Assembly: GCA_965224645.1 (NCBI GenBank)
Contig: OZ245053.1
Span: 3,350,881 to 3,414,880, forward strand
Direction: 5' to 3'
Length of the DNA stretch: 64,000 nucleotides
Source: Woeseiaceae bacterium
Lineage (GTDB): Bacteria; Pseudomonadota; Gammaproteobacteria; Steroidobacterales; Woeseiaceae
The position numbers were made by a program, and so were the translations under genes. This document shows positions 8,972 through 23,398 of the stretch, piece by piece. Below the pieces are notes generated by a model. That model did no database searches, was not told the origin of the DNA, and saw only the letters and a list, made by a program, of their open reading frames with translations. Every line of letters starts with the position of its first letter. The first letter of the stretch is position 1.

Positions 8972-9476
8972 TCCTGCCCCCAGAATCGCTATCTCGCCAG
9001 TTCCTGATGAGCGCCGCATCATCCTGTTGAAGTCCCGCAATGCAATTGATGCGACACCCCCGGAGATCACAGAGGCGAATGCCATGTCCTTCCAGATCGC
9101 GCCGGACACGATCTACCTGAGCAGCGCCGAGCTTTCGTCCGATGAGTTGCTGTCTGTTGCAGCAACGGTGGCGCGCGACAACCTGCACCTTGCCGTCGAC
9201 TACTCCGCAGCGCTGACGGTTATTGCTGTTGCAGGTGAACGCTGTCGGGAAGTGTTGTCATCGGGGGCGACGGTCGACCTGAGTGCCGACCAGTTTGGCG
9301 TTGGGATGAGCTGCCGGACACGGTTTGCTGCTATTTCGACGTTACTCGCATGTGTGGGCGAGATGTCCTTCGAACTCTACTGCGACCGTAGTCATACCGG
9401 ATACCTTTTGGCGTGGTTACACGAGGCTGCAGAAACCGATCGGCTGACGGTTGAATCGGCGGGAGCGAACACGTGA
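8964..9476 (+). CDS. soxG: Sarcosine oxidase gamma subunit
   Basis: 170 aa ORF overlapping the soxA stop by 8 nt, in the canonical fourth position. The call rests mainly on size and synteny because sequence conservation of this subunit is weak. Confidence 0.65.
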   Translation: MTSPAPRIAISPVPDERRIILLKSRNAIDATPPEITEANAMSFQIAPDTIYLSSAELSSDELLSVAATVARDNLHLAVDYSAALTVIAVAGERCREVLSSGATVDLSADQFGVGMSCRTRFAAISTLLACVGEMSFELYCDRSHTGYLLAWLHEAAETDRLTVESAGANT

Positions 9477-9486
9477 TCGCGAGAAT

Positions 9487-10857
9487 ATGAGCGGGCTTCC
9501 ACAAGGTGAGAAGACATGGTCTTCCCCGACCTCATTCATTCTGGCCGCCGTGGGCGCGGCTGTTGGGCTCGGCAACATCTGGAAGTTCCCCTACGTCGTC
9601 GGTAGCAACGGCGGCGGCATCTTTGTCGCGGTTTATCTGCTCTGCATATTGTTCGTTGCATTGCCGGTCCTGATTGGTGAACTCATGGTGGGTCGCATGG
9701 GCCACCACAGTCCGCCGGTTGCGCTGAGACGTGTTGCGGTCGAGGTCGGCGCGTCGCCAAGGTGGTCTGCGCTAGGGTGGGTTGGCGTTGCCGGCAGTCT
9801 TCTGATCGCGACGTTTTATTCGGTCATTTCCGGTTGGACTATCGCCTACGTTCCGATTGCCGTTAAGAGCTTTGGTAGCCAGGAGGGCATTGCCGCCCCG
9901 GAGCTGTTTGCAGAGTTTCTCGCCGATCCGGCGCGCATGGTGGTCTGGTACACGGCCTTCCTTGTGATGACAATGGTGATCATCGCGCGCGGGCTGCATA
10001 AGGGGATCGAGTCGACAATCAGGTTTCTGATGCCCGCGTTGCTCATATTGCTGCTGGGCTTGACTACCTACGCTTGTGTAGCGGGCGATTTGGTCCAAAC
10101 CCTGAGTTACATGTTCAGTGCCCAGTTCTCTGCCGTTACCCCAAGTATCGTATCGGCTGCGGTAGGGCAGGCGTTCTTCTCTATTGGACTTGCGGCCGGA
10201 CTAATGATGACGTACGGGGCGTATCTGCCAAAGGATGTGTCAGTAGCACGTTCTGCAGTAATCATCGTTGTTGCCGACACGCTGATTGCGCTAATGGCAG
10301 GATTTCTGATCTTTCCGATCGTTTTTGCGAACGGGCTGGACCCGGCTGAGGGCCCTGGGCTAATTTTCGTGACATTGCCTACGGCGTTCGTGTCGATGCA
10401 GGGCGGGGCGTTTTTCGGCGTGCTGTTCTTCGCGCTGCTCGCCGTTGCGGCACTCACATCACTGATCGGCGCGATCGAGCCGACTATCTCTTACACGGAA
10501 GACCGGTGGGCAATGCCACGGGCCGTCAGTTGCTCTATCGTCGGGTTCCTGATCTGGCTTGTCGGCCTGCTCTCGGTCTTTTCCTTCAACCTGTTGAGTG
10601 ATTTCCACCCTCTAGCATGGTTCGCTGCATTCGAAGAGACCACGGTTTTTGGTCTGTTCGACTACCTGACAGCCAACGTGATGCTGCCAATCGGCGGTGT
10701 ACTTCTTGCCACCTTTGTGGGCTGGAGGATGCCGAAGTTGGTATTGTGGCGGGAGTTGGCGATCAGCGAAGGCGTGATGGCGCGTATCTGGCTCTTCTTG
10801 ATTCGGTATGTCGCGCCCATCGGAATCGCCATAATGTTCGTCAGCAACCTGGCCTAG
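9487..10857 (+). CDS. Sodium-dependent transporter, neurotransmitter:sodium symporter (NSS/SNF) family
   Basis: GLGNIWKFPYVVGSNGGGIFVAVYLLCILFVALPVLIGELMVGR is the NSS TM1-TM2 signature, and about 11-12 hydrophobic segments follow. The internal ATG 9487 (MSGLPQGEK) is preferred over 9451, which overlaps soxG. Confidence 0.85.
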   Translation: MSGLPQGEKTWSSPTSFILAAVGAAVGLGNIWKFPYVVGSNGGGIFVAVYLLCILFVALPVLIGELMVGRMGHHSPPVALRRVAVEVGASPRWSALGWVGVAGSLLIATFYSVISGWTIAYVPIAVKSFGSQEGIAAPELFAEFLADPARMVVWYTAFLVMTMVIIARGLHKGIESTIRFLMPALLILLLGLTTYACVAGDLVQTLSYMFSAQFSAVTPSIVSAAVGQAFFSIGLAAGLMMTYGAYLPKDVSVARSAVIIVVADTLIALMAGFLIFPIVFANGLDPAEGPGLIFVTLPTAFVSMQGGAFFGVLFFALLAVAALTSLIGAIEPTISYTEDRWAMPRAVSCSIVGFLIWLVGLLSVFSFNLLSDFHPLAWFAAFEETTVFGLFDYLTANVMLPIGGVLLATFVGWRMPKLVLWRELAISEGVMARIWLFLIRYVAPIGIAIMFVSNLA

Positions 10858-10903: not shown

Positions 10904-11452
10904 TTGGATCATGGCGACATAGGTAAACGCATCAGGGAACTGAGAAAATCTTACGGCTATTCGCAACGGGAGTTGGCGGCACGAGCGGGCCTTACGCATG
11001 GCGCGATTTCGTTCATCGAGCGCGACAAGATAAGCCCCTCAGTAGGAAATCTTCGCAAGATCCTGGACGCGTTCTCGGTAACGTTGTCCGACTTCTTTTC
11101 CGGGGAGCCGATATCGCGTGGCAAAGTCTTCTTTCGCAAAGAGGACCTGGTTGAAGTCGGTGGCGGAGGAATCTCCCTCCTGCAGGTAGGTGAGGATCTG
11201 CATGATCGGCCATTGCAGATTCTGTCCGAACATTATGAGGTGGGGGCTGAAACGGCATCAGAGCCCTATAGCCACCAGGGGTATGAGGGAGGCATTGTCA
11301 TCAGCGGATCCATCGAAGTTACGGTTGGCGGCGAGACAGAAACGCTCGGACCCGGTGACGCCTATCTTTTTTCCAGCCGGATTCCGCACCGGTTCCACAA
11401 CCCTGGTCCCGACACGGCCGTCGTGGTGAGCGTCAATACGCCGCCAATCTAG
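10904..11452 (+). CDS. XRE-family HTH transcriptional regulator with C-terminal cupin sensor domain
   Basis: The N-terminal IGKRIRELRKSYGYSQRELAARAGLTHGAISFIERDK is an HTH_3 domain. The C-terminal GGIVISGSIEVTVGGETETLGPGDAYLFSSRIPHRFHN is a cupin fold. Confidence 0.85.
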   Translation: MDHGDIGKRIRELRKSYGYSQRELAARAGLTHGAISFIERDKISPSVGNLRKILDAFSVTLSDFFSGEPISRGKVFFRKEDLVEVGGGGISLLQVGEDLHDRPLQILSEHYEVGAETASEPYSHQGYEGGIVISGSIEVTVGGETETLGPGDAYLFSSRIPHRFHNPGPDTAVVVSVNTPPI

Positions 11453-12489
11453 ATCGAGGCAGAACTGACCTCACTACCCCCGAAACGATCGCAGATCGAG
11501 TCGACAATCAGCGACATGCCATTGCGTACCGGGTCTGCCGCTGGTACGCCAAGCTCGACGCTCGCCGCATCGAGGAGTCGGGCCGCTTCATCGGGTCCGA
11601 GTTGGCTGGTATTGATGCTGGCACCGACGATCGTTACCTCGGGATTCGTAAGTCGCGCTGCCGCCAGTGAAGATTGTGCTGTCTCAGTTAGCGTCGGGAG
11701 CGGCAGGTCTTCGAAATCCGAATTGCGTTCACGGCCTGCCTCGTGGCACAGCACCAGGGCGTCCGGCTGCGAACCGTGCAGAAGTCCCAGCGAGACGCCC
11801 GCGTATGCCGGGTGAAACAACGAGCCCTGTCCTTCGACAATATCCCAGTGATCCGGATCGTTGTCCGGTGAGAGCATCTCGGCCGAACTGGCGATAAAGT
11901 CCGAAACAACGGCATCGATTGGTATGCCCGACCCGGCGATCAGTATCCCCGTCTGACCCGTCGCTCGGAAGTCTGCGTTGATATCCCGGGAGCGCATTTC
12001 CTTCTCGATGGCGAGAGCCGTGTACATCTTGCCAACGCAGCAATCCGTACCTACTGTCAACAATCGCATTCCGCTACGCCTGCGATGCGTTGCCGCCTTG
12101 TATTTGTGTTGGATGCTGCGGAGCTCATGAATACGCCCGCCACCGACTACGGCCGCTTGCTGGAGGTCCGAGTCTTGCTGCAATGAGTCATGCAGGCCAT
12201 TGGCGATATCCATTCCACACTCCAGCGCGGAGACGAGGATTTCTTTCCAGTCAGCTGCAAGCTGTCCGCCTGCCGGGGCTACTCCGATGACCAGCGTTCG
12301 GATGCCGTTCGCGGCCGCTTCTTCAATTGAAAGATCCGGGAACCCCAGATCGACCTGGCAGCCGGGCAGGCGCAGCTGTGCAGCACACGAGTTCGGTCGC
12401 CAGTGCGCAATTCCGCAGGCCGTCTTGGCGTCGATCAGCGATTTCGCGTCGCCCAGGAATAGCAGGTAGGGTTGCTTCAGGTCGTGCAC
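11449..12489 (-). CDS. DUF1611-family protein (DgcN-like putative D-amino-acid N-acetyltransferase)
   Basis: 346 aa. The N-terminus MHDLKQPYLLFLGDAKSLIDAKTACGIAHWRP and the later CVGKMYTALA P-loop-like segment match my memory of DUF1611 (PF07755) proteins. It is divergent from an enolase-superfamily epimerase operon, as in the described dgcN-dgcA pairs. Confidence 0.7.
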   Translation of the reverse strand: MHDLKQPYLLFLGDAKSLIDAKTACGIAHWRPNSCAAQLRLPGCQVDLGFPDLSIEEAAANGIRTLVIGVAPAGGQLAADWKEILVSALECGMDIANGLHDSLQQDSDLQQAAVVGGGRIHELRSIQHKYKAATHRRRSGMRLLTVGTDCCVGKMYTALAIEKEMRSRDINADFRATGQTGILIAGSGIPIDAVVSDFIASSAEMLSPDNDPDHWDIVEGQGSLFHPAYAGVSLGLLHGSQPDALVLCHEAGRERNSDFEDLPLPTLTETAQSSLAAARLTNPEVTIVGASINTSQLGPDEAARLLDAASVELGVPAADPVRNGMSLIVDSICDRFGGSEVSSASI

Positions 12490-12739
12490 AGGTCGGGCCT
12501 TGGTGATCGGCGCTTCTGCATCGATGATGGCCAGAGCGCCGGGTTGAGACGTGGTTAAAAAAATAACCTAGGGGCTTCTGGAAGTAAAGGTGGAGCTCGC
12601 CGGCTCCCTTTGTATAGGGGTAATCTGTTCCCATAGGCCTTGCTGCGCAGGCTGTTTTCCGGTAAATAAAATATACATTCTGTTTCCACGGAAACGACCT
12701 TCTCAGCCAGCCCGATCCAGACGTCCCAAAGGCGAATGC

Positions 12740-13765
12740 ATGTCTGATATTTTCGACCACCCGAGCTTCGACGATCACGAAAACGTCTGCTTTGTCAGTG
12801 ACCCGAAGGCCGGCCTTCACGGAATCATTGCGATTCACCGTTACGGCGAATTTTCTGCTGGCGGAATTCGCATGCAGCCATACGCGGATACAGCTGCGGC
12901 ACTGACGGACGTCTTGCGCCTGAGTCGCGCAATGTCCTACAAGCTGGCTGTCGCAGGACTACCTGCCGGAGGAGCCAAGTCGGTAATCATTGGCGATCCC
13001 GCAACCGACAAATCGCCGGAGTTGCTCGCTGCATTTGCGCGAGCGGTCGAGAAGCTTGGCGGGACTTATCATTGCGGCGCAGATGTCGGGATTAATGCTG
13101 ATGACATGTCAGTAATCGGCCAGTACACCGAGTACACGCCGCCGGCAGAATTCGGAGACTTGTCCATTCCAACCGCACAGGGTGTATTCCATGGGATACG
13201 AGCCGGAGTCAAATGGGCATTGCAACGTGAATCTCTGAAAGACGTTTCTGTTGCGGTACAGGGGCTTGGTCAGGTCGGATCGCGGCTCTGCGAGATGCTG
13301 TCAGACGCCGGGTGCAAACTTACTATCACGGACGTCGATTCGACGCGCTGCAAGGCGGTTGCTGAGGCGACCGGCGCTATCGTTGTCGACGTGGACGAAA
13401 TCTTGTCTGCGAGTGTAGACGTACTGAGTCCCTGCGCTCTCGGCTCGGTACTGTCCGCCGAAACAATCTCTGCGGTAAACGCACGGGTCATTTGCGGCGC
13501 CGCCAACAACCAGCTGGCCACACCTGATGTTGCAAACCTGCTTGCCGAAAACAACATTGTGTATGTGCCGGATTTCGTTGCGAATGCCGGCGGAGTCATA
13601 GGCGGATTGGGCGTTGACCTCAATTACAGCCAGGCAGAGAAGGATGCCCGGATCGAGGGGATCTATGACAGCGCGCTCAAGATCCTTGACAGCGCCGCGA
13701 CGTCGGGAAGTACAACCAACGAAGCGGCTGAAGAATTGGCGCGCGAGGTCCTCGCCGACACGTGA
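12740..13765 (+). CDS. Leucine/phenylalanine/valine dehydrogenase (Glu/Leu/Phe/Val dehydrogenase family)
   Basis: The internal ATG 12740 gives MSDIFDHPSFDDHENVCFVSDPKAGLHGIIAIH. The catalytic-Lys block AGLPAGGAKSVIIGDP, the NAD fold VAVQGLGQVGSRL and the C-terminal YVPDFVANAGGVI align closely with LeuDH/PheDH. The upstream 50 codons of the track ORF are rejected as Cys/Pro-rich with no homology. Confidence 0.85.
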   Translation: MSDIFDHPSFDDHENVCFVSDPKAGLHGIIAIHRYGEFSAGGIRMQPYADTAAALTDVLRLSRAMSYKLAVAGLPAGGAKSVIIGDPATDKSPELLAAFARAVEKLGGTYHCGADVGINADDMSVIGQYTEYTPPAEFGDLSIPTAQGVFHGIRAGVKWALQRESLKDVSVAVQGLGQVGSRLCEMLSDAGCKLTITDVDSTRCKAVAEATGAIVVDVDEILSASVDVLSPCALGSVLSAETISAVNARVICGAANNQLATPDVANLLAENNIVYVPDFVANAGGVIGGLGVDLNYSQAEKDARIEGIYDSALKILDSAATSGSTTNEAAEELAREVLADT

Positions 13766-14775
13766 TGAACGCCAGGCATACTATAGGGTCCTGCCGGATG
13801 GGTCTTCGGATGGAGCGCTGGGCGGCGCGCAAACCGTTTCGAATCGCGGGGCAGAGCTACGACTACTTTGATGTATTGGTGGTAGAAATCGCCAGGGCCG
13901 GGCACGTTGGACGAGGTGAATCGCTGGGCGTGGACTACCTCGGGGAGTCGGTGGGTTCGATGACCGCGCAGCTCGAATCAATCTGGGCTGAACTCGAAGC
14001 AGGGATCAGCCGCGAGGAGTTGCAGGAAGTGTTGCCGTCCGGCGGCGCACGCTGTGCTGTCGACTGCGCGATGTGGGACCTTGAAGCGAAGGAGACCGGC
14101 GTATCGGTGTTTGAACGCGCTGGTGTAAGCGCCGAGGCGCTGGCGACGGTCTTCACTCTGGGTGTGGAGAACGAGGTGGCAGACGTTCGTGCGGCGGCCG
14201 TCAGCGATCCGGCGAGCCAGCATGCCGCTCTCAAGATTAAAGTCGATGCCGAAAACCCGGTCGCCGTAATCGAGGCAATACGAAGCGTGCGTCCAGATGC
14301 TGATCTTGTCGTTGATGCGAACCAGAGCTGGACGCCGGAGATGCTACGTGAGTTTGCGCCTCACCTTGGCAGGCTTAGCGTGTCAATGCTGGAGCAGCCC
14401 CTGCCCCGCGATGGCGACGAAGCGCTTGAAGACTTCGATTCGAATCTGCTGATATGCGCAGACGAATCCTGCCAGGACAGTTCAGAGATACCTGCGATCA
14501 TGAACCGGTACGGTGCTGTCAATATCAAGCTCGACAAGTCCGGAGGTTTGACTGAAGGGCTCAAAATGGTCAATGAGGCTCGGCGCGCGGGCCTCGGGCT
14601 CATGGTCGGCAATATGTGTGGTACCTCGCTGGCCATGGCACCAGCGTTCGTCATTGGCCAATATTGTGAGTTCATCGATCTCGACGGTCCATTGCTGAAT
14701 CGCTACGATCGCGAGCCGGCCATGCAATACCGTGCCGGACAGATTCACGCGCCTTCGGCGCAGCTCTGGGGTTAA
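13762..14775 (+). CDS. Enolase-superfamily racemase/epimerase, dipeptide-epimerase subgroup (DgcA-like)
   Basis: The catalytic pattern is ALKIKVD (KxK), VDANQSW (metal Asp), LEQP (Glu), ADES (Asp) and NIKLDKSGG (second Lys). The start overlaps the dehydrogenase stop (GTGATGA). Confidence 0.8.
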   Translation: MMNARHTIGSCRMGLRMERWAARKPFRIAGQSYDYFDVLVVEIARAGHVGRGESLGVDYLGESVGSMTAQLESIWAELEAGISREELQEVLPSGGARCAVDCAMWDLEAKETGVSVFERAGVSAEALATVFTLGVENEVADVRAAAVSDPASQHAALKIKVDAENPVAVIEAIRSVRPDADLVVDANQSWTPEMLREFAPHLGRLSVSMLEQPLPRDGDEALEDFDSNLLICADESCQDSSEIPAIMNRYGAVNIKLDKSGGLTEGLKMVNEARRAGLGLMVGNMCGTSLAMAPAFVIGQYCEFIDLDGPLLNRYDREPAMQYRAGQIHAPSAQLWG

Positions 14776-14785
14776 GGTCGATCGT

Positions 14786-17700
14786 ATGTCCGAAGCCTCT
14801 CCGAGCATTCGCGATGTCAAGCTGACCGATCGTTACGATGCGCAGGTCGGTACGGTTTTGTTGTCCGGCATGCAGGCACTGGTGAGGTTGCCACTGCTGC
14901 AAAAGCAGCGCGACCTGGCCGCCGGACTCAACACGGCAGGATTTATTTCCGGGTATCGCGGCTCGCCGGTCGGCAGCTATGACCTTCAGTTGAACGCGGC
15001 AAAAAAATGGCTTGATTCAAGTGATATCACGTTCCGGCCGGGCCTGAATGAGGACCTTGCGGCAACAGCGATCTGGGGTACTCAGCAGTCTACCTCATTG
15101 CCCGGAGCCAGGTACGACGGCGTGTTCTCAATTTGGTACGGCAAGGGTCCCGGCGTAGATCGATCCGGCGATGCGTTCCGTCATGGCAACCGATTCGGTG
15201 CCTCGGAGCATGGCGGTGTCGTTCTGGTCGTCGGCGACGATCATCCCGGAAAGTCGTCAACCGTTGCACATCAAAGTGATCAGGCACTGGCGGCTAACGA
15301 TATTCCGGTTCTTTATCCGGCGACTGTTCAGGAGTACATCGACTTCGGCCTGCACGGTTTCGGTCTTTCACGTTTCTCCGCGCTTTGGGTGGGGTTGAAG
15401 TGCGTCAATGAAACCGCGGATTGCACGGCGACTGTCGCTTTGCCAGAGGGCTTCAGTATCGAGCTCCCCGAGTTGGATGAGAGTACCAGCGAAAACCTTC
15501 GAGGGGCCATGTCGGTGGATGCACTGGGCGACGAGATTCGCGTGCAACAGCATCGGTTGGTCGCAGCAAAGGCCTATGCGAGAGCGAATGACCTCGACCG
15601 GGTGACGTTGGGGGGAGGGAAGAGCAAGGTAGGCATTGTAACGACGGGCAAGTCATGGTGCGACGTTGTATCGGCACTGAAGTTGCTCGGCATCGATTCA
15701 TCCCGAGCTGCCAAGCTGGGGCTCAGCGTCTACAAGGTCGGCCTGGTATGGCCGCTCGAGGAAACGGGGTTAGAGTCGTTTGCCGCGAACTGCGAGGAAC
15801 TGTTGTTCGTAGAGGAAAAGCGCGCCTTTATCGAACATCAGGCGGCACACATTCTGTTTAACAATCGCAGTGGTCGACGTCCGGCCCTCGTTGGCAAGCA
15901 AGATGAAGATGGGAATGCCTTGTTCTCGTCAGCAGAGCAACTTGCCATTGAACAGATCGCGATCGTGATTGGCGGTCGATTGCAGCGACGTGGAACGGTT
16001 GATGACGAACTGCGCGAAAGCATCGATCGATTGGAAAGTGACCGAAATCTGGCGAAGCCGTTGGGCGCTGGCTTGCCGATCCGGACGCCCTATTTCTGCT
16101 CTGGTTGTCCACACAACACGTCGACAAAAGTACCGGATGGCAGTGTCGCGATGTCAGGAATCGGCTGTCACACGATGGCGCTCTTCATGAATCGCGATAC
16201 GTTGCCGCCAACGCAGATGGGAGGCGAGGGAGCTAACTGGATCGGGATTGCCCCGCACACCAGCATGCATCACGTATTTCAGAATCTGGGTGATGGAACC
16301 TACAACCACTCGGGCCTGATGGCGATACGGGCATCGGTCGCCGCGGGCGTCAACATCACCTACAAGATCCTCTACAACGATGCCGTTGCGATGACCGGAG
16401 GGCAGCCTGTCGAGGGAGTGCTGACGGTTCCCGATATCGTTGCGCAGCTTAAGGCGGAGTCCGTAGAACGTGTCGCCGTCATCTATGCCGATGAGCCCGA
16501 TGATCGGGTTCGCCGGCTACGAGGAAAAGGCGTCACGATCGATGACCGCAGTGAGCTCGACCGGCTGCAGCGCGAATTGCGCGAAGTGGAAGGTGTGTCT
16601 GCGATAATTTTTGACCAGACCTGCGCGGCTGAGAAGCGCCGGCGGCGCAAACGCAAGCTGTATCCCGACCCACCCAAGCGGGCATTCATTAACTCGGCAG
16701 TTTGCGAGGGATGTGGTGATTGTTCGGCCAAGGCCAACTGCATCTCTATCGTCCCCGAGGAGACTCGGCTTGGTCGCAAGCGCAAGATCGACCAGTCAAG
16801 TTGCAACAAGGACTACAGCTGTGTGACGGGATTTTGCCCGTCATTCGTGACCGTTCATGGTGGCGACCTGCGCAAGCCCGATAAGGACACCGGCACCGTC
16901 GATGTAAGTCGGTTCGATATGCCTGAGCCGGTAAGCCTGTCCATAGACGATACTTACAATGTGCTCATCACGGGAATTGGCGGGACCGGTGTTACAACGA
17001 TCAGCGCCATTTTGGCGATGGCGGCGCACCTGGAGGGCAAGGCAGTTTCCGCATATGACATGACGGGGCTGGCGCAAAAAGGAGGGGCGGTCCAGAGTCA
17101 TCTGCGCATTAGCTGCGACTCATCGATCAAGGATGCGGCCAGGATTGGTGTTGGGCAGGCGGACCTCCTGATCGGTTGTGATCCGCTTGTCACCAGTAGC
17201 GATGACGCGGGCCGGACGATCTCAAGTACAAATACTTACGTGCTTCTGAATAACCATACGACACCGACCGGTGCGTTCCAGCTGAATCCCGATATTGATT
17301 TCGCGAATGCCGCCGTATTGTCTGCCGTGAGTGAGGCTACCGCACAGAACCGGCTCTTCACGGTCGAGGCAACGCAGATCGCGGAGCGCATACTGGGTAA
17401 CTCCATTGGCGCCAACATGATCATGTTGGGTTATGCACTGCAGAAAGGCGTGTTGCCCATTGGACGGGCAGCTGTCGGGAGGGCGGTCGAACTCAATGGC
17501 GTTGCTGTTGCGGCGAACAAGGCCGCCATCGAGATCGGCCGAGTTTTGGCGTGGGAGCCCGAGCACATAGCGTCAGAGCACCGTGCGCTGGTCGACACAG
17601 AGGAGTCTCTGCACGACATCGTCGAGTATCGGGTCAATTGGTTGACTGACTATCAAAATGCCGCGCTCGGAGAACACTATCGCGAGGTTATTGACTCGAC

Positions 17701-18256
17701 GTCGAAGCAAGTGGGCAAGAAGCTCCAGTCTACAGATGCTTTGTCGAAGGCGATCGCCAGGAACTATTTCAGACTATTGGCCTACAAAGACGAGTACGAG
17801 GTGGCACGACTTTATAGTACTCCTGAATATCGGCAGAGGTTGAGGTCAACGTTCGAGGGCAACTACAAGCTGCGGCTGCACTTCGCTGCACCCATTCTGT
17901 CCCGACGGGATAAGGAGTCTGGCGAGCTGCAGAAGATCAGTGTAGGTGGCTGGGTGTTTCCAATCTTGTCATTGCTATCGAAGCTGAAGTTCCTGCGTGG
18001 GACGCCGTTAGATGTTTTCGGCTACACGAGGGAACGTCGGGACGAACGGGCCCTGATCGGGATGTACCAGTCGGTTATCGACTCCATTTGCAGGAACGTA
18101 TCAGTTGCTAATGTGGAATTGGCGACACAAGTGGCCAGGGTACCGGAAACCATTCGAGGCTTTGGCCACGTCAAGGAACGTAATCGAGTTGCAGGCGTCG
18201 AGCGCATGGCTGCGTTGCTGGCGGAACTCGAAGAATCGGAGAGAAACATATGTTGA
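14786..18256 (+). CDS. Indolepyruvate:ferredoxin oxidoreductase family protein (fused IorA-IorB, 2-oxoacid:ferredoxin oxidoreductase)
   Basis: About 1156 aa. The N-terminus KLTDRYDAQVGTVLLSGMQALVRLPLLQKQRDLAAGLNTAGFISGYRGSPVG is typical of proteobacterial fused IOR. There is a TPP-binding region GDGTYNHSG and a 4Fe-4S Cys cluster CEGCGDCSAKANC...CNKDYSCVTGFCPSF. The internal ATG 14786 is preferred. Confidence 0.85.
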   Translation: MSEASPSIRDVKLTDRYDAQVGTVLLSGMQALVRLPLLQKQRDLAAGLNTAGFISGYRGSPVGSYDLQLNAAKKWLDSSDITFRPGLNEDLAATAIWGTQQSTSLPGARYDGVFSIWYGKGPGVDRSGDAFRHGNRFGASEHGGVVLVVGDDHPGKSSTVAHQSDQALAANDIPVLYPATVQEYIDFGLHGFGLSRFSALWVGLKCVNETADCTATVALPEGFSIELPELDESTSENLRGAMSVDALGDEIRVQQHRLVAAKAYARANDLDRVTLGGGKSKVGIVTTGKSWCDVVSALKLLGIDSSRAAKLGLSVYKVGLVWPLEETGLESFAANCEELLFVEEKRAFIEHQAAHILFNNRSGRRPALVGKQDEDGNALFSSAEQLAIEQIAIVIGGRLQRRGTVDDELRESIDRLESDRNLAKPLGAGLPIRTPYFCSGCPHNTSTKVPDGSVAMSGIGCHTMALFMNRDTLPPTQMGGEGANWIGIAPHTSMHHVFQNLGDGTYNHSGLMAIRASVAAGVNITYKILYNDAVAMTGGQPVEGVLTVPDIVAQLKAESVERVAVIYADEPDDRVRRLRGKGVTIDDRSELDRLQRELREVEGVSAIIFDQTCAAEKRRRRKRKLYPDPPKRAFINSAVCEGCGDCSAKANCISIVPEETRLGRKRKIDQSSCNKDYSCVTGFCPSFVTVHGGDLRKPDKDTGTVDVSRFDMPEPVSLSIDDTYNVLITGIGGTGVTTISAILAMAAHLEGKAVSAYDMTGLAQKGGAVQSHLRISCDSSIKDAARIGVGQADLLIGCDPLVTSSDDAGRTISSTNTYVLLNNHTTPTGAFQLNPDIDFANAAVLSAVSEATAQNRLFTVEATQIAERILGNSIGANMIMLGYALQKGVLPIGRAAVGRAVELNGVAVAANKAAIEIGRVLAWEPEHIASEHRALVDTEESLHDIVEYRVNWLTDYQNAALGEHYREVIDSTSKQVGKKLQSTDALSKAIARNYFRLLAYKDEYEVARLYSTPEYRQRLRSTFEGNYKLRLHFAAPILSRRDKESGELQKISVGGWVFPILSLLSKLKFLRGTPLDVFGYTRERRDERALIGMYQSVIDSICRNVSVANVELATQVARVPETIRGFGHVKERNRVAGVERMAALLAELEESERNIC

Positions 18257-20520
18257 ATCGAATTACAGGTATCGCGTGCATATTCACGGCCCTGTTCTGG
18301 CAGACGGGTGCCGCATTCGCGGAATTGCCATCCGCTTATCATGACCTGTTCAAGGCGGGCGAATTTCTGGACGGTCGGCCGGGCGAGTCGGCCTGGGCGG
18401 ATGATGGTAGCGGGCTTTGGCACAAGGCGGATGGCCGCCTTCAGCTGATCGATCCCAGGAATGGGAACATCATTGCAAATTACGATGCGCGACGCTTGCA
18501 ACAGTCGATGACGGACCAGTTCGGACCGATGTCCGCTGTGCCATTGCGCTTGCAGACCGTGCAAGCGATCGACGCCGATACCCTTGAATTCGAATGGCTC
18601 GAGGCGTCGATTACCTACAGCGAGGATGCTGGAGCGGTCAGTGTTGAGGAGGGCAAGGGCCCAATTCCTCCGGGCCGGTTTATCCGCAACCGCTTTCTCT
18701 TCGACGGTAATCCCGTACCCGATCTCGTGTCGGGATCAGGAGCGCAGGTAGCCACGATTATCGATGGGAATATCCACGTACGATCGCACGGTAGCCAGGA
18801 GTGGCGGCAAGTTACAGATGATGCAAGCGAGCGGCACGGTTGGGACCTTGCCAGCGGCAAAATGAACTTGCCGCATATTCGCAGTGTTGCGACCAATGCT
18901 TTTGCACGATCGGGTGCCTACCTGTTTGCGCAAAAGATCAACCGTACCGGAATGCCTGAGTTTCCGGCATTGAACATCATCACGGATGACGTGCCCACCG
19001 TGGTCTATCATGATGACTTCCGTGCAGGCGGTCCCTATTACATCTATCAGCCCGCCATTATCGATATCGCTGCCGGCAAAGCGGTGATGCTATCGGGTGT
19101 CGATGTGTCGAAAGAGCATGTGCTCTTCCTGGATTGGGACGAAGACTCCGAATTCGCGTGGTTCGCCGCGATCAACCGGGACTTCAGCGAAATCCGGGTC
19201 CTGCGTGCGATGGCGAAAGACGCAAAAGCGGAAGTTGTATTCACGGAGAAAGGCGGTCGTGGCCTGGTGCCCCCACATCAGGCCTATTACGTCGAAAGCG
19301 TTGGATTTACGCTTCTTCCGGGAAATCGCGGCTTCCTGTTCGAGTCCCAACGGGATGGTTGGAAGCATCTGTATCACTACGACCTTGACGGCGAGCTCGT
19401 GCGCCAGATTACGAGCGGCGAGTTTCCGGTTGCGAACGTCGAGTATTTCGATGCTGCTGAGGAACGCGTTTACTTCATGGCTCGTAGTGACCTCGAGCGG
19501 CCCTACGACCTGCATCTGCACAGCATGAAATTGGACGGCAGCGCTGCGCGGCAGCACACAGCCGAGCACGGGGTTCACGCTGTCGCATTCTCGCCTGACG
19601 GCGCCTACTTTTCCGATGCCTGGTCTTCGCCGACGTCGCCGCCGGCTTTGTCTATCTCGACCAGCGACGGCGAAACGCGGCATGTCGTCGCCCAATCTGG
19701 TATTGAGAGACTCAAGCCACTGGGTTGGACGCCGCCGGTCGAGTTCGTCGCCAAGGCAGCGGATGGAGAAACCGATGTCTACGGCACAATGTACCTGCCC
19801 CTGAATTTTGACGCATCCGGTTCCTATCCAATCATCGAAGAGATCTACGGCGGCCTGTTCCTGATTAAGGGCGATCATGAGTTTCTGGCATCACCTTACA
19901 CGTCACAAAACTACCCTCTAGCGTTGACTGCGTTGGGCTACATTGTGGTTCGGTTCGATACGCCCGGCACAATCGGCCGTTCTCGTGACTTCGCCAGAGC
20001 GGTCGACGACAAGTGGGGCCCGGGAGTTATTGCCGACCATGCTGCTGTGATTCGAGATCTTGGGAGACAATATGACTATGTCGACAGTTCCAGAGTCGGC
20101 ATCTTTGGCCACAGCTGGGGCGGATACTATGCACTCATGGCGCTGGCGCTCGAGGGCGATACCTACGATGCGGCGATATCTACCGCGCCTGGCGTTTACT
20201 CGGATTCGAGCAGGGGCGATGCATTCATGGAGGCGCATCTCGGCAGCCCGAATGACAACCCTGAAGCCTGGGACAGGGCGAACTTCTTCCGGTATGCGGA
20301 TGCAATCGAAAACCCGTTGCTGTTGGGCGTGGGCAACAGGGACTACGGCTTGTATGCGGCAGTGATCCGAATCACCGATGCGCTGATCAAGCGCGGGTTC
20401 CAACATGAGGTGATGATTGCGCCGACTATGGGGCATGGAATTTATGGACCTTATGAGTCCTACTTCTTCGAGAAGTCCACACAATTTTTGCTCAAGCACG
20501 TCCCGGTTAGTAAGGACTGA
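18250..20520 (+). CDS. S9-family serine peptidase (dipeptidyl-peptidase IV / prolyl oligopeptidase-like), secreted
   Basis: It has a signal-like N-terminus, a long beta-propeller-type N-terminal region and a C-terminal alpha/beta hydrolase domain with the nucleophile elbow GIFGHSWGGYYA. Confidence 0.85.
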   Translation: MLNRITGIACIFTALFWQTGAAFAELPSAYHDLFKAGEFLDGRPGESAWADDGSGLWHKADGRLQLIDPRNGNIIANYDARRLQQSMTDQFGPMSAVPLRLQTVQAIDADTLEFEWLEASITYSEDAGAVSVEEGKGPIPPGRFIRNRFLFDGNPVPDLVSGSGAQVATIIDGNIHVRSHGSQEWRQVTDDASERHGWDLASGKMNLPHIRSVATNAFARSGAYLFAQKINRTGMPEFPALNIITDDVPTVVYHDDFRAGGPYYIYQPAIIDIAAGKAVMLSGVDVSKEHVLFLDWDEDSEFAWFAAINRDFSEIRVLRAMAKDAKAEVVFTEKGGRGLVPPHQAYYVESVGFTLLPGNRGFLFESQRDGWKHLYHYDLDGELVRQITSGEFPVANVEYFDAAEERVYFMARSDLERPYDLHLHSMKLDGSAARQHTAEHGVHAVAFSPDGAYFSDAWSSPTSPPALSISTSDGETRHVVAQSGIERLKPLGWTPPVEFVAKAADGETDVYGTMYLPLNFDASGSYPIIEEIYGGLFLIKGDHEFLASPYTSQNYPLALTALGYIVVRFDTPGTIGRSRDFARAVDDKWGPGVIADHAAVIRDLGRQYDYVDSSRVGIFGHSWGGYYALMALALEGDTYDAAISTAPGVYSDSSRGDAFMEAHLGSPNDNPEAWDRANFFRYADAIENPLLLGVGNRDYGLYAAVIRITDALIKRGFQHEVMIAPTMGHGIYGPYESYFFEKSTQFLLKHVPVSKD

Positions 20521-20522
20521 CT

Positions 20523-21752: not shown

Positions 21753-22087
21753 TCGCCCGCGCCCGCCACCGCGGAGAAGAACTTTTCGAACTTGTCATCG
21801 ATCCCTGCGTAATCGTCAGCATCGGCGGGCGGCGTCTTGCGAACGGTAATCACTGGCCATTCTTCGCTGTAAGTCGAGTTTAGCTGAAGCCAGCGCTCAG
21901 CCTCTTCCAGTGAGTCAGGTAGTATTGCTTCCTCGGGGCACTCCGCCTCGCAGACTCCGCAATCGATGCACTCGTAGGGGTTGATGACGAGCATGTTCGC
22001 TCCTTCGTGAAAGCAGTCAACAGGACATACCTCCACACACTCCATGTACTTGCAGCGGATGCAATGTTCCGTAACAACGTACGTCAC
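21749..22087 (-). CDS. fdxA: 7Fe ferredoxin (3Fe-4S + 4Fe-4S), FdxA type
   Basis: [29 protein letters not shown]...[16 protein letters not shown] is the classic Azotobacter-type ferredoxin I Cys pattern. Confidence 0.9.
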
Positions 22088-22930: not shown

Positions 22931-23398
22931 ATGACCGACGTAGCACTGGACCAGATCGACGCGAAAATTCTCACGCTTCTGCAAGACGACGCCCGCGCGA
23001 CGTTGAACGAGATTTCCAGTCAAGTGCACATGTCCACGTCGCAAGTCCAACGACGGATTCGACGACTCGAGGAAGCTGCGGTAGTCCTTGGTTATACGGC
23101 TCGCATCGATGCGGCGGCGGTGGGCCTAGAAGTAGGGGCGTTCGTGGAGGTGACACTCGATGCACAGGACGCTCGCGCAGCTGATGCCTTTCACAAGGCG
23201 ATAAGGGCAATTCCGGAGGTGCTTGAGTGCCATCGGGTGAGCGGCGACGCTGATTACCTGTTGCGTATCGTCACCGAAGATCTCAAAGGGTATTCGTCGT
23301 TCGCACAGGAGACTATTCTTGCGATTCCCCAAGTAGGCCGTCTTCGATCTATGATCATTTTCGAATCGCCCAAAGACACGACAACCTTGCCACTTTGA
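22931..23398 (+). CDS. Lrp/AsnC-family transcriptional regulator
   Basis: 155 aa. LDQIDAKILTLLQDDARATLNEISSQVHMSTSQVQRRIRRLEE is an HTH_AsnC domain, followed by a C-terminal RAM domain (ECHRVSGDADYLLRI). Confidence 0.9.
   Translation: MTDVALDQIDAKILTLLQDDARATLNEISSQVHMSTSQVQRRIRRLEEAAVVLGYTARIDAAAVGLEVGAFVEVTLDAQDARAADAFHKAIRAIPEVLECHRVSGDADYLLRIVTEDLKGYSSFAQETILAIPQVGRLRSMIIFESPKDTTTLPL

What the first reader, a model, noticed from the sequence alone, without database searches (positions are those of the whole stretch)
11449..18256. DgcN-like / DgcA-like pair rewired with a Leu/Phe/Val dehydrogenase and a fused indolepyruvate:ferredoxin oxidoreductase
Seen: a DUF1611 gene is divergent from an operon of amino-acid dehydrogenase, enolase-superfamily epimerase (coupled GTGATGA) and a 1156-aa IOR.

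Established, from my memory of the literature:
- DUF1611 DgcN N-acetylates D-glutamate, and the enolase-type DgcA racemises N-acetyl-D-Glu in a marine D-Glu catabolic route.
- LeuDH/PheDH deaminate branched-chain or aromatic L-amino acids to 2-oxo acids.
- IOR-family enzymes convert aryl or branched 2-oxo acids to acyl-CoA using ferredoxin.

Inference:
- The same acetylate, racemise, deacylate logic may be applied here to hydrophobic D-amino acids (D-Leu, D-Phe, D-Val) rather than D-Glu.
- Deamination and oxidative decarboxylation would follow.
- A D-aminoacylase (3045..4643) and a ferredoxin (21749..22087) are nearby.
- If correct, this would be a new substrate branch of that pathway.
Basis: partly seen in the sequence, partly recalled or inferred. 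Interest (0 to 1): 0.65.

Follow-up and report, generated by a model that had tools for sequence, protein, structure and literature searches.

The report
DgcN/DgcA pair wired to LeuDH-like/IOR
A bacterial gene island for eating peptides that contain D-amino acids carries the known D-glutamate "acetylate-then-flip" enzyme pair (DgcN/DgcA) in an unusual operon with a leucine-dehydrogenase-like enzyme and a 2-oxoacid:ferredoxin oxidoreductase; the layout is real and rare, but the sequences do not show that the pair has switched to hydrophobic D-amino acids.

Summary
A DUF1611/DgcN-like gene (11449-12489, -) is divergent from an operon of a LeuDH-like dehydrogenase (12737-13765), a DgcA-like enolase epimerase (13765-14775, start overlapping the dehydrogenase stop), a fused 1156-aa IOR-family oxidoreductase (14786-18256), an exported S9 peptidase and an M19 lipoprotein dipeptidase.

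The order recurs in only one other place among the roughly 175 related places examined, ENA contig L001, at 66-90% amino-acid identity. Typical loci are a plain dgcN-dgcA pair.

The hydrophobic-D-amino-acid idea is only partly supported.
- For: the only transporter is MhsT-like (hydrophobic amino acids). The dehydrogenase pocket excludes glutamate. DgcA-like epimerases lie near LeuDH-like genes in two further, distant layouts (L170/L171, L119).
- Against: both enzymes nest inside the canonical families and keep every highly conserved charged residue. The epimerase keeps the 20s-loop arginine. No cytoplasmic N-acetyl-L-amino-acid deacylase is in the locus.

My preferred reading (about 0.45) is a peptide and D-amino-acid scavenging island with two parallel cytoplasmic modules: D-Glu conversion, and hydrophobic L-amino acid to acyl-CoA. 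I class it as a new variant of a known kind, of moderate interest.

The parts
1685..2875 (-). Exported beta-lactamase-fold hydrolase (D-aminopeptidase-like), divergent from the amidohydrolase operon
   Evidence: Pfam Beta-lactamase 4.5e-61. NCBIfam D-aminopeptidase PRK13128 scores 121.6 bits, below its cut-off. Signal peptide ...TVAGVQA/M. A 58%-identical homologue has the same divergent pairing in L170.
3045..4643 (+). D-aminoacylase-family amidohydrolase, a lipoprotein (exported)
   Evidence: Pfam Amidohydro_3. PDB D-aminoacylase 1M7J/1RJP at about E 6e-71 and N-acyl-D-Glu deacylase 3GIP at 7e-65. Lipobox SLGGC. Homologues lie directly upstream of dgcN in 16 of 80 metagenome loci.
4666..9476 (+). 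SoxB / (SoxD?) / SoxA / SoxG-like heterotetrameric oxidase genes. Their link to the finding is uncertain.
   Evidence: TIGR01373 soxB scores 624.7, above its cut-off of 529. The SoxA family model scores 1063.6, below its cut-off of 1164. A SoxG Pfam hit is present.
9451..10857 (+). Na+-coupled NSS/SNF amino-acid transporter, MhsT-like
   Evidence: Pfam SNF. PDB MhsT 4US3 at E 1.5e-81 over the full length, against LeuT at about 1e-26. Homologues lie in L119 (52%) and L170 (38%) next to epimerase and dehydrogenase genes.
10904..11452 (+). HTH_3 + cupin (PuuR-like) transcription regulator, convergent with dgcN
   Evidence: Pfam. NCBIfam PuuR scores 145.6, below its cut-off of 211. Its C-terminal piece is 90% identical on L001. 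The same type of regulator sits directly upstream of dgcN-dgcA in L116, L117, L138 and L139.
11449..12489 (-). DgcN-like DUF1611 protein (putative acetyl-CoA:D-amino-acid N-acetyltransferase)
   Evidence: NF041892 scores 471.3 against a cut-off of 480. It is about 50% identical to 7XRJ. All conserved charged residues are kept. The unique change G201S sits at a glycine that is invariant in 118 relatives.
12490..12736 (.). Divergent promoter/operator region. It holds a perfect palindrome GGTTAAAAAAATAACC (12553-12568) and an AT-rich block GGTAAATAAAATATACA (about 12658-12677).
   Evidence: These blocks are conserved in L001 although the flanking sequence has diverged. A one-mismatch copy lies at 3013-3028, just upstream of the amidohydrolase operon. 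There are 3 matches in the window against 0.54 expected.
12737..13765 (+). LeuDH/PheDH/TrpDH-like NAD(P)-dependent L-amino-acid dehydrogenase
   Evidence: The K68/K80/D115 equivalents are present. The pocket is A40/G113/A114/V/G, which is not a glutamate pocket.
13765..14775 (+). DgcA-like enolase-superfamily racemase/epimerase, translationally coupled to the dehydrogenase
   Evidence: NF042940 scores 384 against a cut-off of 400. The KxK, D, E, D, K catalytic set and the DxD motif are present. The 20s loop reads PFRIAGQ.
14786..18256 (+). Fused indolepyruvate/2-oxoacid:ferredoxin oxidoreductase family protein (TPP, POR and DUF6537 domains), 1156 aa
   Evidence: NF009589 scores 1499 bits, above its cut-off of 816. 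Pfam TPP_enzyme_C, POR and DUF6537. The N-terminal 320 aa are 79% identical on L001. No PDB relative is detectable by sequence.
18250..20520 (+). Exported S9 / DPP-IV-like serine peptidase
   Evidence: Pfam DPPIV_N + Peptidase_S9. Signal peptide and GHSWGG nucleophile motif are visible in the translation.
20523..21752 (+). M19 dipeptidase, a lipoprotein
   Evidence: Pfam Peptidase_M19 1.5e-110. Best PDB match is 3ID7 (Streptomyces Sco3058) at E 2e-100. Lipobox LLLGC.
21749..22773 (-). 7Fe-type ferredoxin (21749-22087) and nitroreductase-family protein (22084-22773). The ferredoxin is a possible electron acceptor for the IOR-family enzyme.
   Evidence: Pfam Fer4 + DUF3470, and Nitroreductase. 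A 53%-identical nitroreductase lies directly upstream of a 59%-identical dehydrogenase in L005/L006.
22931..23398 (+). Lrp/AsnC-family regulator at the edge of the island
   Evidence: Pfam. NCBIfam Lrp scores 104.8, below its cut-off. An Lrp homologue (45%) also lies next to the dehydrogenase in L174.

Best explanation
The stretch from about 1.7 to 23 kb is a scavenging island for peptides that contain D-amino acids.

Step 1 (inferred from homology and signal sequences). Four exported hydrolases release free D- and L-amino acids outside the cytoplasm. They are an S9 DPP-IV-like peptidase, an M19 Sco3058-like lipoprotein dipeptidase, a D-aminoacylase-family lipoprotein and a beta-lactamase-fold D-aminopeptidase-like protein.

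Step 2 (inferred). An MhsT-like Na+ symporter imports neutral and hydrophobic amino acids.

Step 3 (inferred). Two cytoplasmic modules share one divergent promoter.
- (a) DgcN-like plus DgcA-like perform the known irreversible D-to-L conversion. The D-amino acid is N-acetylated with acetyl-CoA, and the N-acetyl-D form is then racemised to N-acetyl-L. Judging from the sequences, the substrate is most probably still D-glutamate or another acidic D-amino acid. The product N-acetyl-L-Glu needs no dedicated deacylase, because it is an arginine-pathway intermediate.
- (b) The LeuDH-like dehydrogenase deaminates neutral or hydrophobic L-amino acids to 2-oxo acids. The fused IOR-family enzyme converts these to acyl-CoA and reduces a ferredoxin, possibly the adjacent 7Fe ferredoxin. 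This is the functional analogue of an ldh-bkd operon.

On this reading the two modules are co-transcribed because they share a feedstock (peptides), not because they form one linear pathway. A PuuR-like HTH-cupin regulator, an Lrp-type regulator, or both, probably act on the conserved palindrome in the divergent promoter. No step has been shown experimentally.
For: - Family assignments.
- Export signals on all four hydrolases.
- Canonical dgcN-dgcA loci also sit among peptidase, beta-lactamase-like, amidohydrolase and HTH-cupin genes: amidohydrolase in 16 of 80 loci, beta-lactamase-like in 9 of 80, and L138 with an M32 carboxypeptidase.
- The window pair nests within the DgcN-linked clade, next to the HTH-cupin-dgcN-dgcA loci. 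It is as far from the solved DgcN as many canonical members: 49.8% identity against a median of 53.2%, range 46.8-61.4.
- Window against L001 gives DgcN 74.6% and DgcA 66.5%. This is typical of canonical pairs, where DgcA has a median of 65.6% when DgcN is 70-75%.
- All charged residues conserved at 90% or more are retained.
- The 20s loop keeps an arginine (PFRIAG). Across the family the arginine sits at either of two positions, nearly always one or the other: no locus of 88, and 2 of the 120 closest proteins, has it at both. This suggests a single conserved role. In YcjG/YkfB, from my memory of the literature, that arginine binds the Glu gamma-carboxylate.
- The dehydrogenase pocket lacks the GDH Lys/Ser pair.
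- A dehydrogenase of the same clade sits in an ldh-bkdA1A2B operon in L119.
- Fused IOR-family enzymes act as 2-oxoacid-to-acyl-CoA enzymes in aerobic Proteobacteria (EdcC, PMC7793797).
- Promoter blocks are conserved with L001.
Against: - The dehydrogenase and the epimerase are translationally coupled, and this is conserved in L001.
- An independent epimerase-NSS-dehydrogenase operon exists in a distant lineage (L170/L171). Another DgcA-like gene lies near ldh-bkd and an NSS gene in L119. A purely feedstock-level link predicts such tight and repeated pairing less well than a direct metabolic link does.
- No acidic-amino-acid transporter lies in the locus.
- Both proteins, and their L001 counterparts, score just below the NCBIfam equivalog cut-offs. 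So does one canonical-context epimerase, P0006.
- DgcN has Ser at a Gly that is invariant in 118 relatives.
Confidence: 0.45

Rival explanations
1. One reading: one linear pathway for hydrophobic D-amino acids. D-Leu, D-Phe, D-Val or D-Met is imported by the MhsT-like carrier. DgcN-like N-acetylates it and DgcA-like racemises it. An unlinked aminoacylase deacetylates the product. The LeuDH-like enzyme deaminates the L-amino acid, and the IOR-family enzyme converts the 2-oxo acid to acyl-CoA.
For: - The dehydrogenase stop and the epimerase start overlap, as in L001.
- The epimerase lies between the dehydrogenase and the IOR gene in one operon.
- The transporter is MhsT-like.
- The dehydrogenase pocket excludes Glu.
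- DgcA-like, NSS and LeuDH-like genes are associated again in L170/L171. There the 20s loop has no arginine (FVITGH). They are also associated in L119.
- DgcN/DgcA scores fall just under the equivalog cut-offs in the window, L001, L170 and L119.
- G201S in DgcN.
- Precedent, from my memory of the literature: the Geobacillus N-succinyl-amino-acid racemase route for the irreversible D-to-L conversion of hydrophobic amino acids (Sakai et al. 2006).
Against: - No conserved basic residue is lost in either enzyme.
- The 20s-loop arginine is retained in the window and in L001.
- Both proteins are nested in the canonical clades, with ordinary divergence.
- The dehydrogenase-linked epimerases are polyphyletic and share no convergent specificity changes.
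- No cytoplasmic N-acetyl-L-amino-acid deacylase lies in the locus, because both amidohydrolase-type candidates are exported.
- A later paper describes the DgcN route as one for acidic D-amino acids and their amides (PMC12363236).
Confidence: 0.3
2. The enolase enzyme works here as a dipeptide epimerase. It would convert L-Xaa-D-Yaa to L-Xaa-L-Yaa on dipeptides produced by the S9 dipeptidyl peptidase. The L,L-dipeptides are then hydrolysed and the amino acids burned by the dehydrogenase and the IOR-family enzyme. DgcN-like would have a separate or accessory role.
For: - Closest solved structures are dipeptide epimerases (4GFI, YcjG 1JPD).
- The DxD motif (DLDGP) is retained. In dipeptide epimerases, from my memory of the literature, this motif binds the N-terminal ammonium group.
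- A dipeptidyl peptidase and a dipeptidase lie in the same operon.
- L170 and L119 have the epimerase without an adjacent DgcN.
Against: - The NCBIfam YcjG model scores 257 against a cut-off of 343, far below the DgcA model at 384.
- The protein lies in the DgcN-linked clade, not in the YcjG-like clade.
- DgcN is conserved beside it in L001.
- The S9 and M19 enzymes are exported, whereas the epimerase has no signal peptide. No peptide transporter is present, and the only carrier is an amino-acid-type NSS.
Confidence: 0.1
3. The juxtaposition has no functional meaning. A lineage-specific rearrangement, namely inversion of dgcN and insertion of a dehydrogenase-IOR cassette, took place next to a region rich in mobile elements and happens to persist in two related genomes.
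For: - Only the window and L001 show this exact order, among 160 epimerase loci returned by two collection scans and about a dozen dehydrogenase contexts.
- The island borders a region rich in IS elements and integrases, from about 24 kb.
Against: - Order, overlaps and promoter blocks are conserved at 66-79% amino-acid identity for the complete genes.
- Epimerase-dehydrogenase-NSS association recurs independently in distant lineages.
- GC content is uniform (0.56-0.59) across 1-22 kb, unlike the neighbouring islands.
Confidence: 0.08

Closest known systems
DgcN-DgcA D-glutamate catabolic pathway (Yu et al. 2023, ISME J 17:537; EC 2.3.1.312 and EC 5.1.1.25; DgcN structure PDB 7XRJ)
   Same: - Same two protein families. 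DgcN is full-length homologous to 7XRJ (E 3e-108). The epimerase sits in the DgcN-linked clade and has the same PFRIxG 20s loop as epimerases that pass the DgcA model.
- The two genes are linked.
- The same kinds of neighbours occur: HTH-cupin regulator, Amidohydro_3, beta-lactamase-fold and peptidase genes.
   Different: - dgcN is inverted and separated from dgcA by a LeuDH-like gene.
- dgcA is translationally coupled to that dehydrogenase and followed by a fused IOR-family gene.
- Both proteins score just below the NCBIfam equivalog cut-offs (471/480 and 384/400).
- DgcN has G201S.
- This order was seen in only 2 of the roughly 175 related places examined (161 with a full-length epimerase gene).
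ldh-bkd type operons (leucine dehydrogenase + branched-chain 2-oxoacid dehydrogenase), as in L119 and, from memory, in Pseudomonas and Bacillus
   Same: An ELFV-family LeuDH-like dehydrogenase is followed by an enzyme that turns the 2-oxo acid into acyl-CoA. An Lrp-type regulator lies nearby.
   Different: - The decarboxylating enzyme is a fused ferredoxin-dependent IOR-family protein rather than the E1/E2/E3 complex.
- An epimerase gene is inserted between the two.
- The dehydrogenase pocket (A/G/V/G) differs from the Bacillus LeuDH pocket (L40/A113/V291/V294).
N-succinylamino-acid racemase pathway of Geobacillus kaustophilus (Sakai et al. 2006, from memory): acylate, racemise, deacylate for hydrophobic D-amino acids
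   Same: It also uses an enolase-superfamily racemase acting on N-acyl amino acids.
   Different: - That pathway uses a GNAT succinyltransferase, an OSBS/NSAR-subgroup racemase and an M20 desuccinylase.
- None of these is in this locus, and the deacylase step is missing here.
L-Ala-D/L-Glu epimerase YcjG/YkfB (murein peptide recycling)
   Same: Closest solved fold and sequence (1JPD, E 1.5e-66). The catalytic KxK/D/E/D/K set and the DxD motif are shared.
   Different: The R24 position holds Gly, and the arginine has moved three residues upstream. The YcjG model scores well below its cut-off. The gene is linked to DgcN rather than to murein-recycling genes.
EdcC-type fused IOR-family 2-oxoacid oxidoreductases of aerobic Alphaproteobacteria (PMC7793797)
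   Same: Single-polypeptide IOR-family enzyme in an aerobic-type Proteobacterium. It is used catabolically to turn a 2-oxo acid into an acyl-CoA.
   Different: EdcC acts on a steroid ring-cleavage product. The substrate here is unknown and is presumably an amino-acid-derived 2-oxo acid.

Membership tests
DgcN (D-glutamate N-acetyltransferase, NCBIfam NF041892, EC 2.3.1.312) | DUF1611_N + DUF1611 two-domain architecture and full-length homology to the solved enzyme 7XRJ | tested here: met
   Pfam 8.9e-21 and 4.6e-70. 7XRJ at E 3e-108 over residues 5-333, 49.8% identity.
DgcN (D-glutamate N-acetyltransferase, NCBIfam NF041892, EC 2.3.1.312) | Score at or above the curated equivalog cut-off (480 bits) | tested here: not met
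   Window 471.3 bits and L001 457.0. Canonical relatives score 495-575. A near miss.
DgcN (D-glutamate N-acetyltransferase, NCBIfam NF041892, EC 2.3.1.312) | Family-invariant residues retained | tested here: inconclusive
   All 26 charged positions conserved at 90% or more are kept. Gly201, invariant in 118 relatives, is Ser in both the window and L001. The structural role of this residue is unknown to me.
DgcN (D-glutamate N-acetyltransferase, NCBIfam NF041892, EC 2.3.1.312) | Acetyl-CoA-dependent N-acetylation of D-Glu | not testable with these tools
   Needs an enzyme assay.
DgcA (N-acetyl-D-Glu racemase, NCBIfam NF042940, EC 5.1.1.25) | Enolase-superfamily MLE-subgroup catalytic set (KxK, Asp/Glu/Asp metal ligands, second Lys) | tested here: met
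   LKIKVD, VVDANQ, LEQPLP, CADES and NIKLDK align with the YcjG and 4GFI catalytic positions.
DgcA (N-acetyl-D-Glu racemase, NCBIfam NF042940, EC 5.1.1.25) | Score at or above the curated equivalog cut-off (400 bits) | tested here: not met
   Window 384 and L001 386.5. Canonical relatives score 411-424, but P0006, which has a canonical context, scores 386.9.
DgcA (N-acetyl-D-Glu racemase, NCBIfam NF042940, EC 5.1.1.25) | Membership of the DgcN-linked clade, and the PFRIxG-type 20s loop seen in epimerases that pass the model | tested here: met
   The NJ tree places window + L001 among DgcN-adjacent epimerases, apart from the YcjG-like clade. The loop PFRIAGQ compares with PFRISGN, PFRITGQ and PFRIAGS in P0014, P0033 and P0096.
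DgcA (N-acetyl-D-Glu racemase, NCBIfam NF042940, EC 5.1.1.25) | Adjacent, co-directional dgcN-dgcA gene pair | tested here: not met
   In the window, dgcN is divergent and a dehydrogenase gene lies between the two. 60 of 80 metagenome loci have the co-directional adjacent pair.
L-Ala-D/L-Glu epimerase (YcjG type, NF011708) | Model cut-off (343 bits) and Arg24 in the 20s loop | tested here: not met
   257 bits. The R24 position holds Gly.
Leucine dehydrogenase (EC 1.4.1.9), Bacillus type | Catalytic Lys68/Lys80/Asp115 and a GxGxxG nucleotide fold | tested here: met
   K68, K80 and D115 are invariant in the alignment. GLGQVG is present.
Leucine dehydrogenase (EC 1.4.1.9), Bacillus type | Side-chain pocket L40/A113/V291/V294 | tested here: not met
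   The pocket here is A/G/V/G. This is typical of a large and mostly uncharacterised clade. One member of that clade sits in an ldh-bkd operon (L119). No NCBIfam equivalog is reached; the best is TrpDH ScyB at 297 against a cut-off of 600.
Fused indolepyruvate/2-oxoacid:ferredoxin oxidoreductase family (NF009589/PRK13030) | Subfamily model cut-off and the TPP, POR and DUF6537 domains | tested here: met
   1499 bits against 816. Pfam domains. Substrate specificity is not testable.
Geobacillus-type NSAR D-to-L conversion pathway | GNAT N-succinyltransferase, OSBS/NSAR-subgroup racemase and M20 L-desuccinylase in one cluster | tested here: not met
   No GNAT or M20 domain appeared among the tested ORFs of 1-26 kb. 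The racemase is AEE/DgcA-like; the OSBS models score 72 bits or less.

The most novel reading that the evidence does not exclude
The DgcN/DgcA 'acetylate-then-racemise' system is not confined to D-glutamate. In this lineage, and independently in L170-type epimerase-NSS-dehydrogenase operons whose 20s loop has lost its arginine, it would be the entry step of a dedicated route for hydrophobic D-amino acids (D-Leu, D-Met, D-Phe). That route would continue through a LeuDH-like dehydrogenase and an oxygen-tolerant fused 2-oxoacid:ferredoxin oxidoreductase to acyl-CoA.
Probability: 0.3. Interest if true: 0.6.

Novelty: new variant of a known kind. Interest (0 to 1): 0.42.

Why it matters
D-amino acids are a sizeable part of refractory marine and soil organic nitrogen. 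So far the DgcN-DgcA route has been tied to D-glutamate, and in a later paper to other acidic D-amino acids and their amides.

If this rearranged operon feeds hydrophobic D-amino acids into a LeuDH/OFOR module, it would do three things:
- extend the substrate range of the family;
- give the large fused IOR family of aerobic Proteobacteria, which is mostly uncharacterised, a physiological substrate class;
- explain why DgcA-like epimerases recur next to LeuDH-like and NSS-transporter genes.

If it does not, the locus is still a compact example of a complete periplasm-to-CoA island for peptides that contain D-amino acids. It also cautions against reading a pathway from gene order alone.

Tried and rejected
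1. Specificity switch in the epimerase 20s loop. At first the R24-to-Gly change relative to YcjG and 4GFI looked like a loss of Glu recognition. I rejected this. The PFRIxG loop is shared by epimerases that pass the DgcA model. The family carries its arginine at either of two positions, almost never both.
2. Accelerated evolution. Window-L001 identities (DgcN 74.6%, DgcA 66.5%) match canonical pairs. Median identities to the family are at the low end but inside the range. There is no signal.
3. Positions that determine specificity. Only a few, mostly conservative, differences appeared: DgcA W105F, L107R, M130V/L, P216N/D and M240A; DgcN R118G (followed by R119) and G201S. The dehydrogenase-linked epimerases share no convergent changes.
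4. Co-variation between DgcN columns and the arginine state of the partner epimerase. This was confounded by phylogeny and uninformative for the window-type subfamily.
5. Collection scans. The scans of species-representative genomes and of JGI metagenomes, run to find more copies of the arrangement, returned 160 loci and none had it. The source genome itself is hidden.
6. Expression evidence. The only public runs that hold the locus have the uniform depth of DNA libraries, so they give no transcript information.
7. Dehydrogenase as a glutamate dehydrogenase with the IOR enzyme as a 2-oxoglutarate oxidoreductase. This would make a tidy D-Glu-to-succinyl-CoA route. I rejected it for the dehydrogenase, because the GDH K89 and S380 equivalents are Ala and Gly.
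8. Literature. The primary DgcN/DgcA paper and the dipeptide-epimerase specificity paper are not held in the library. Residue roles in those enzymes therefore rest on my memory and are marked as such.
9. Consensus promoter and terminator scan. It gave nothing above the shuffled expectation.

Full report
**What is there.**
- 11449-12489 (-) encodes a 346-aa DUF1611_N + DUF1611 protein. It scores 471.3 bits on the NCBIfam DgcN equivalog model, whose cut-off is 480. It aligns end to end with PDB 7XRJ at E 3e-108. A preprint that cites Yu et al. 2023 identifies 7XRJ as the D-glutamate acetyltransferase.
- A 247-bp gap separates it from the divergent operon.
- The first operon gene is an ELFV dehydrogenase. 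Its best start is ATG 12737 (342 codons; the called product is 341 aa, as on L001).
- The second is an MR_MLE enolase. Its start overlaps the dehydrogenase stop: ACGTGATGA, with GTG 13762 and ATG 13765 over TGA 13763-13765.
- The third is a fused IOR-family protein starting at ATG 14786, 10 nt after the epimerase stop. It scores 1499 bits on NF009589.
- The operon continues with an S9 DPP-IV-like peptidase (18250-20520) and an M19 dipeptidase (20523-21752).
- A 7Fe-type ferredoxin gene and a nitroreductase gene converge on the end of the operon.
- Upstream, all on the + strand and tightly packed, lie a D-aminoacylase-family amidohydrolase, SoxB/(D)/A/G-like genes, an NSS transporter and an HTH-cupin regulator. 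The amidohydrolase is divergent from a beta-lactamase-fold gene.
- Contigs from four independent public runs match 3001-23000 without a single difference, and one contig spans the whole stretch. The order is therefore not an assembly artefact.

**How rare is the arrangement.**
Each of the three central proteins has exactly one close relative among 5.8 billion protein clusters. All three relatives lie on one 4.5-kb ENA contig, L001. Identities there are DgcN-like 75%, dehydrogenase 75% and epimerase 66%. L001 has the same order and orientation, the same 1-nt stop/start overlap, the HTH-cupin C-terminus (90%) and the IOR N-terminus (79%). The next relatives drop to at most 61%, 64% and 57%.

A scan of 185,579 species-representative genomes and a scan of JGI metagenome contigs returned 160 epimerase loci. 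None had a LeuDH-like or IOR gene directly beside the epimerase. L119 alone has a dehydrogenase about 9 kb away. The typical layout is an adjacent, co-directional dgcN-dgcA pair (60 of 80 metagenome loci). It often has an Amidohydro_3 gene directly upstream (16 of 80) or an HTH-cupin regulator upstream (L116, L117, L138, L139). Beta-lactamase-fold and peptidase genes lie nearby; L138 has an M32 carboxypeptidase.

The recurrence is nonetheless limited to one related lineage.

**Are the DgcN-like and DgcA-like proteins ordinary members of their families?**
Mostly yes.
- They fall just below the NCBIfam equivalog cut-offs, as do the L001 proteins (457/480 and 386.5/400). Canonical relatives score 495-575 and 411-424. 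One epimerase in a fully canonical context (P0006) also scores 386.9.
- Median identity to 118 relatives is 56.0% for DgcN, against a family median of 58.9%. It is 49.5% for DgcA, against 55.6%. Both are at the low end but inside the range of per-sequence medians.
- The window DgcN is 49.8% identical to 7XRJ. The other 118 relatives span 46.8-61.4%.
- In an NJ tree, window + L001 sit inside the DgcN-linked epimerase clade, next to the HTH-cupin-dgcN-dgcA loci. They are well apart from a YcjG-like clade of Hyphomonadaceae that lacks DgcN.
- The window-L001 identities (74.6% and 66.5%) match what canonical pairs show at that distance.
- Every charged position conserved at 90% or more in either family is retained in the window proteins.
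- The few clade-specific differences are mostly conservative. The exception is DgcN G201S, in the motif DFxxGAxE, where 118 of 118 relatives have Gly.

**The 20s loop.**
Compared with YcjG and 4GFI, the window epimerase has Gly where those enzymes have Arg24. From my memory of the YkfB and YcjG structural literature, Arg24 binds the gamma-carboxylate of the substrate Glu. This looked like a specificity switch, but it is a family trait.

Epimerases that pass the DgcA model have the same PFRIxG loop. Across 88 DgcA-family loci, most of them with an adjacent dgcN, the arginine sits at the R24 position in 58 (xIAR type) and three residues earlier in 9 (FRIxG type). It is at both positions in none and at neither in about 15. 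Among the 120 closest proteins, 82 are FRIxG and 2 carry arginine at both positions.

The near-exclusive alternation argues for one conserved role that can be filled from either position. The window and L001 keep the arginine. By the logic used for dipeptide epimerases, this favours an acidic side chain. The inference rests on remembered structural data and was not tested here.

**The dehydrogenase and the IOR-family enzyme.**
The dehydrogenase keeps the K68, K80 and D115 equivalents. At the LeuDH pocket positions L40/A113/V291/V294 it has A/G/V/G. From memory, two of these positions correspond to GDH K89 and S380, so glutamate is excluded as a substrate. This pocket is typical of a large clade. 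One member of that clade (46% identical) heads a classical ldh-bkdA1-bkdA2-bkdB operon in L119.

The enzyme is thus best described as a LeuDH-like dehydrogenase for neutral or hydrophobic L-amino acids, of unresolved preference.

The fused IOR family has no solved relative detectable by sequence. It does have a genetic precedent in aerobic Alphaproteobacteria as a 2-oxoacid-to-acyl-CoA enzyme: EdcC, PMC7793797. The dehydrogenase + IOR pair is therefore a coherent deaminate-then-decarboxylate module, analogous to ldh-bkd.

**The surroundings.**
All four hydrolases are exported:
- the S9 peptidase has a signal peptide;
- the M19 dipeptidase has a lipobox, LLLGC. Its best PDB match is Streptomyces Sco3058 (3ID7, E 2e-100), which I recall prefers L-Xaa-D-Xaa dipeptides;
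- the D-aminoacylase-family protein has a lipobox, SLGGC, and matches 1M7J, 1RJP and 3GIP;
- the beta-lactamase-fold protein has a signal peptide.

The only transporter is much closer to MhsT than to LeuT (4US3 at E 1.5e-81, against about 1e-26 for LeuT). MhsT is the hydrophobic-amino-acid NSS carrier.

The divergent promoter contains blocks conserved with L001, including a perfect palindrome GGTTAAAAAAATAACC. A one-mismatch copy lies just upstream of the amidohydrolase operon. The window has 3 matches against 0.54 expected. This hints at a common regulon.

**Independent associations.**
Of ten distinct genomic contexts of dehydrogenase relatives, two include a DgcA-like epimerase within 3 kb.
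- L001 is one.
- L170/L171 is the other, from a distant organism. It has an epimerase-NSS-dehydrogenase operon (47%, 38% and 54% identity to the window proteins). Beside it lies the same divergent beta-lactamase-fold | amidohydrolase pair as in the window (58% and 53%). It has no DgcN, and an IS fragment lies upstream. Its 20s loop (FVITGH) has no arginine.
- L119 combines ldh-bkd, an NSS transporter (52%), two amidohydrolases and a DgcA-like gene (49%) within 11 kb.

These three epimerases are polyphyletic within the family and share no convergent substitutions. The repeated association is more than chance. It is the strongest argument for a functional link between this epimerase family and the catabolism of neutral amino acids.

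Other contexts of the dehydrogenase are peptidase-rich (L009, L173, L174) or unrelated.

**Weighing.**
The relevant points are the translational coupling, the MhsT-like carrier, the non-Glu dehydrogenase and the repeated epimerase-NSS-dehydrogenase association.
- Protein sequence favours an unchanged acidic substrate. The relevant points are nesting within the families, ordinary divergence, retained basic residues and the retained 20s-loop arginine. In addition, a later paper describes the route as one for acidic D-amino acids and their amides.
- The missing cytoplasmic deacylase fits D-Glu better, because N-acetyl-L-Glu is itself a metabolite, than it fits hydrophobic substrates.

I therefore prefer a two-module island, with D-Glu conversion alongside hydrophobic L-amino-acid oxidation and a shared peptide feedstock, at about 0.45. 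No step has been shown biochemically.

**Novelty and verdict.**
All the families are known. The architecture is a rare, lineage-restricted variant of the dgc locus: dgcN inverted, and dgcA embedded between a LeuDH-like gene and a fused IOR gene. I class it as a new variant of a known kind, of moderate interest. It is a good and cheap target for the substrate-panel assays listed under next steps.

Noticed in passing
window 12553-12568 and 3013-3028; L001 about 1310-1326: A perfect palindrome GGTTAAAAAAATAACC lies in the dgcN/dehydrogenase divergent promoter and is conserved base for base in L001. A one-mismatch copy (GGTTAAATAATTAAGC) lies 17 nt upstream of the amidohydrolase-sox-NSS-regulator operon. 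It may be a shared operator for the HTH-cupin or Lrp regulator.
   Followed up: partly
DgcA family alignment (window epimerase residues 'PFRIAGQ', about 13837-13857); loci L002-L169: In DgcN-linked epimerases the 20s-loop arginine sits either at the YcjG R24 position (xIAR) or three residues earlier (FRIxG). It was at both in no locus and in 2 of the 120 closest proteins. About 15 of 88 loci have neither, for example FEIAGQ and FVITGH. These may be the true non-Glu variants.
   Followed up: partly
L170 436-7616 (and L171): A distant organism has an operon of DgcA-like epimerase, NSS transporter and LeuDH-like dehydrogenase. Next to it lies the same divergent beta-lactamase-fold | D-aminoacylase-family pair as in the window. 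There is no DUF1611 gene, and a transposase fragment lies at the contig end.
   Followed up: partly
window 4666-9476: A SoxB/(SoxD?)/SoxA/SoxG-like heterotetrameric oxidase set is packed between the exported D-aminoacylase-family gene and the NSS transporter. SoxB passes its family cut-off and SoxA falls just below. Its substrate, and its relation to D-amino-acid metabolism, are unclear. L138 also has SoxB/SoxA-like genes near a canonical dgcN-dgcA pair.
   Followed up: no
window 26322-35696: Inverted IS21-type repeats bracket a 6.1-kb low-GC segment (0.46-0.52). The arms are 28236-28721 and 34831-35316 (486 nt, 100% complementary), plus 26322-26708 and 35310-35696 (93%). The segment carries a C39-peptidase ABC exporter (31007-33145) and ORFs with no family match. 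It looks like a composite transposon or an invertible segment.
   Followed up: partly
window 24321-26277, 35915-40101, 55808-56662, 59668-60690: The region right of the island is dense in mobile-element genes: IS3-type and IS30-type transposases, two rve_3 transposase genes (about 69% identical over 300 nt) and three tyrosine-integrase-type genes. The catabolic island therefore borders a recombination-prone region.
   Followed up: no
window 16346-16398 (inside the IOR gene): In three of four public runs the assembled contigs break at 16351-16375, and several 31-48-nt contigs of 2-3 times higher depth lie there. The fourth run reads straight through. This suggests a short repeated or strain-variable word at this point.
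   Followed up: no
window 22084-22773; L005 9324-11050: The nitroreductase-family gene next to the ferredoxin has a 53%-identical homologue. In a Xanthomonadales MAG, that homologue lies immediately upstream of a 59%-identical LeuDH-like dehydrogenase, after hydantoinase A/B genes. This is a second recurring neighbour of this dehydrogenase clade.
   Followed up: no
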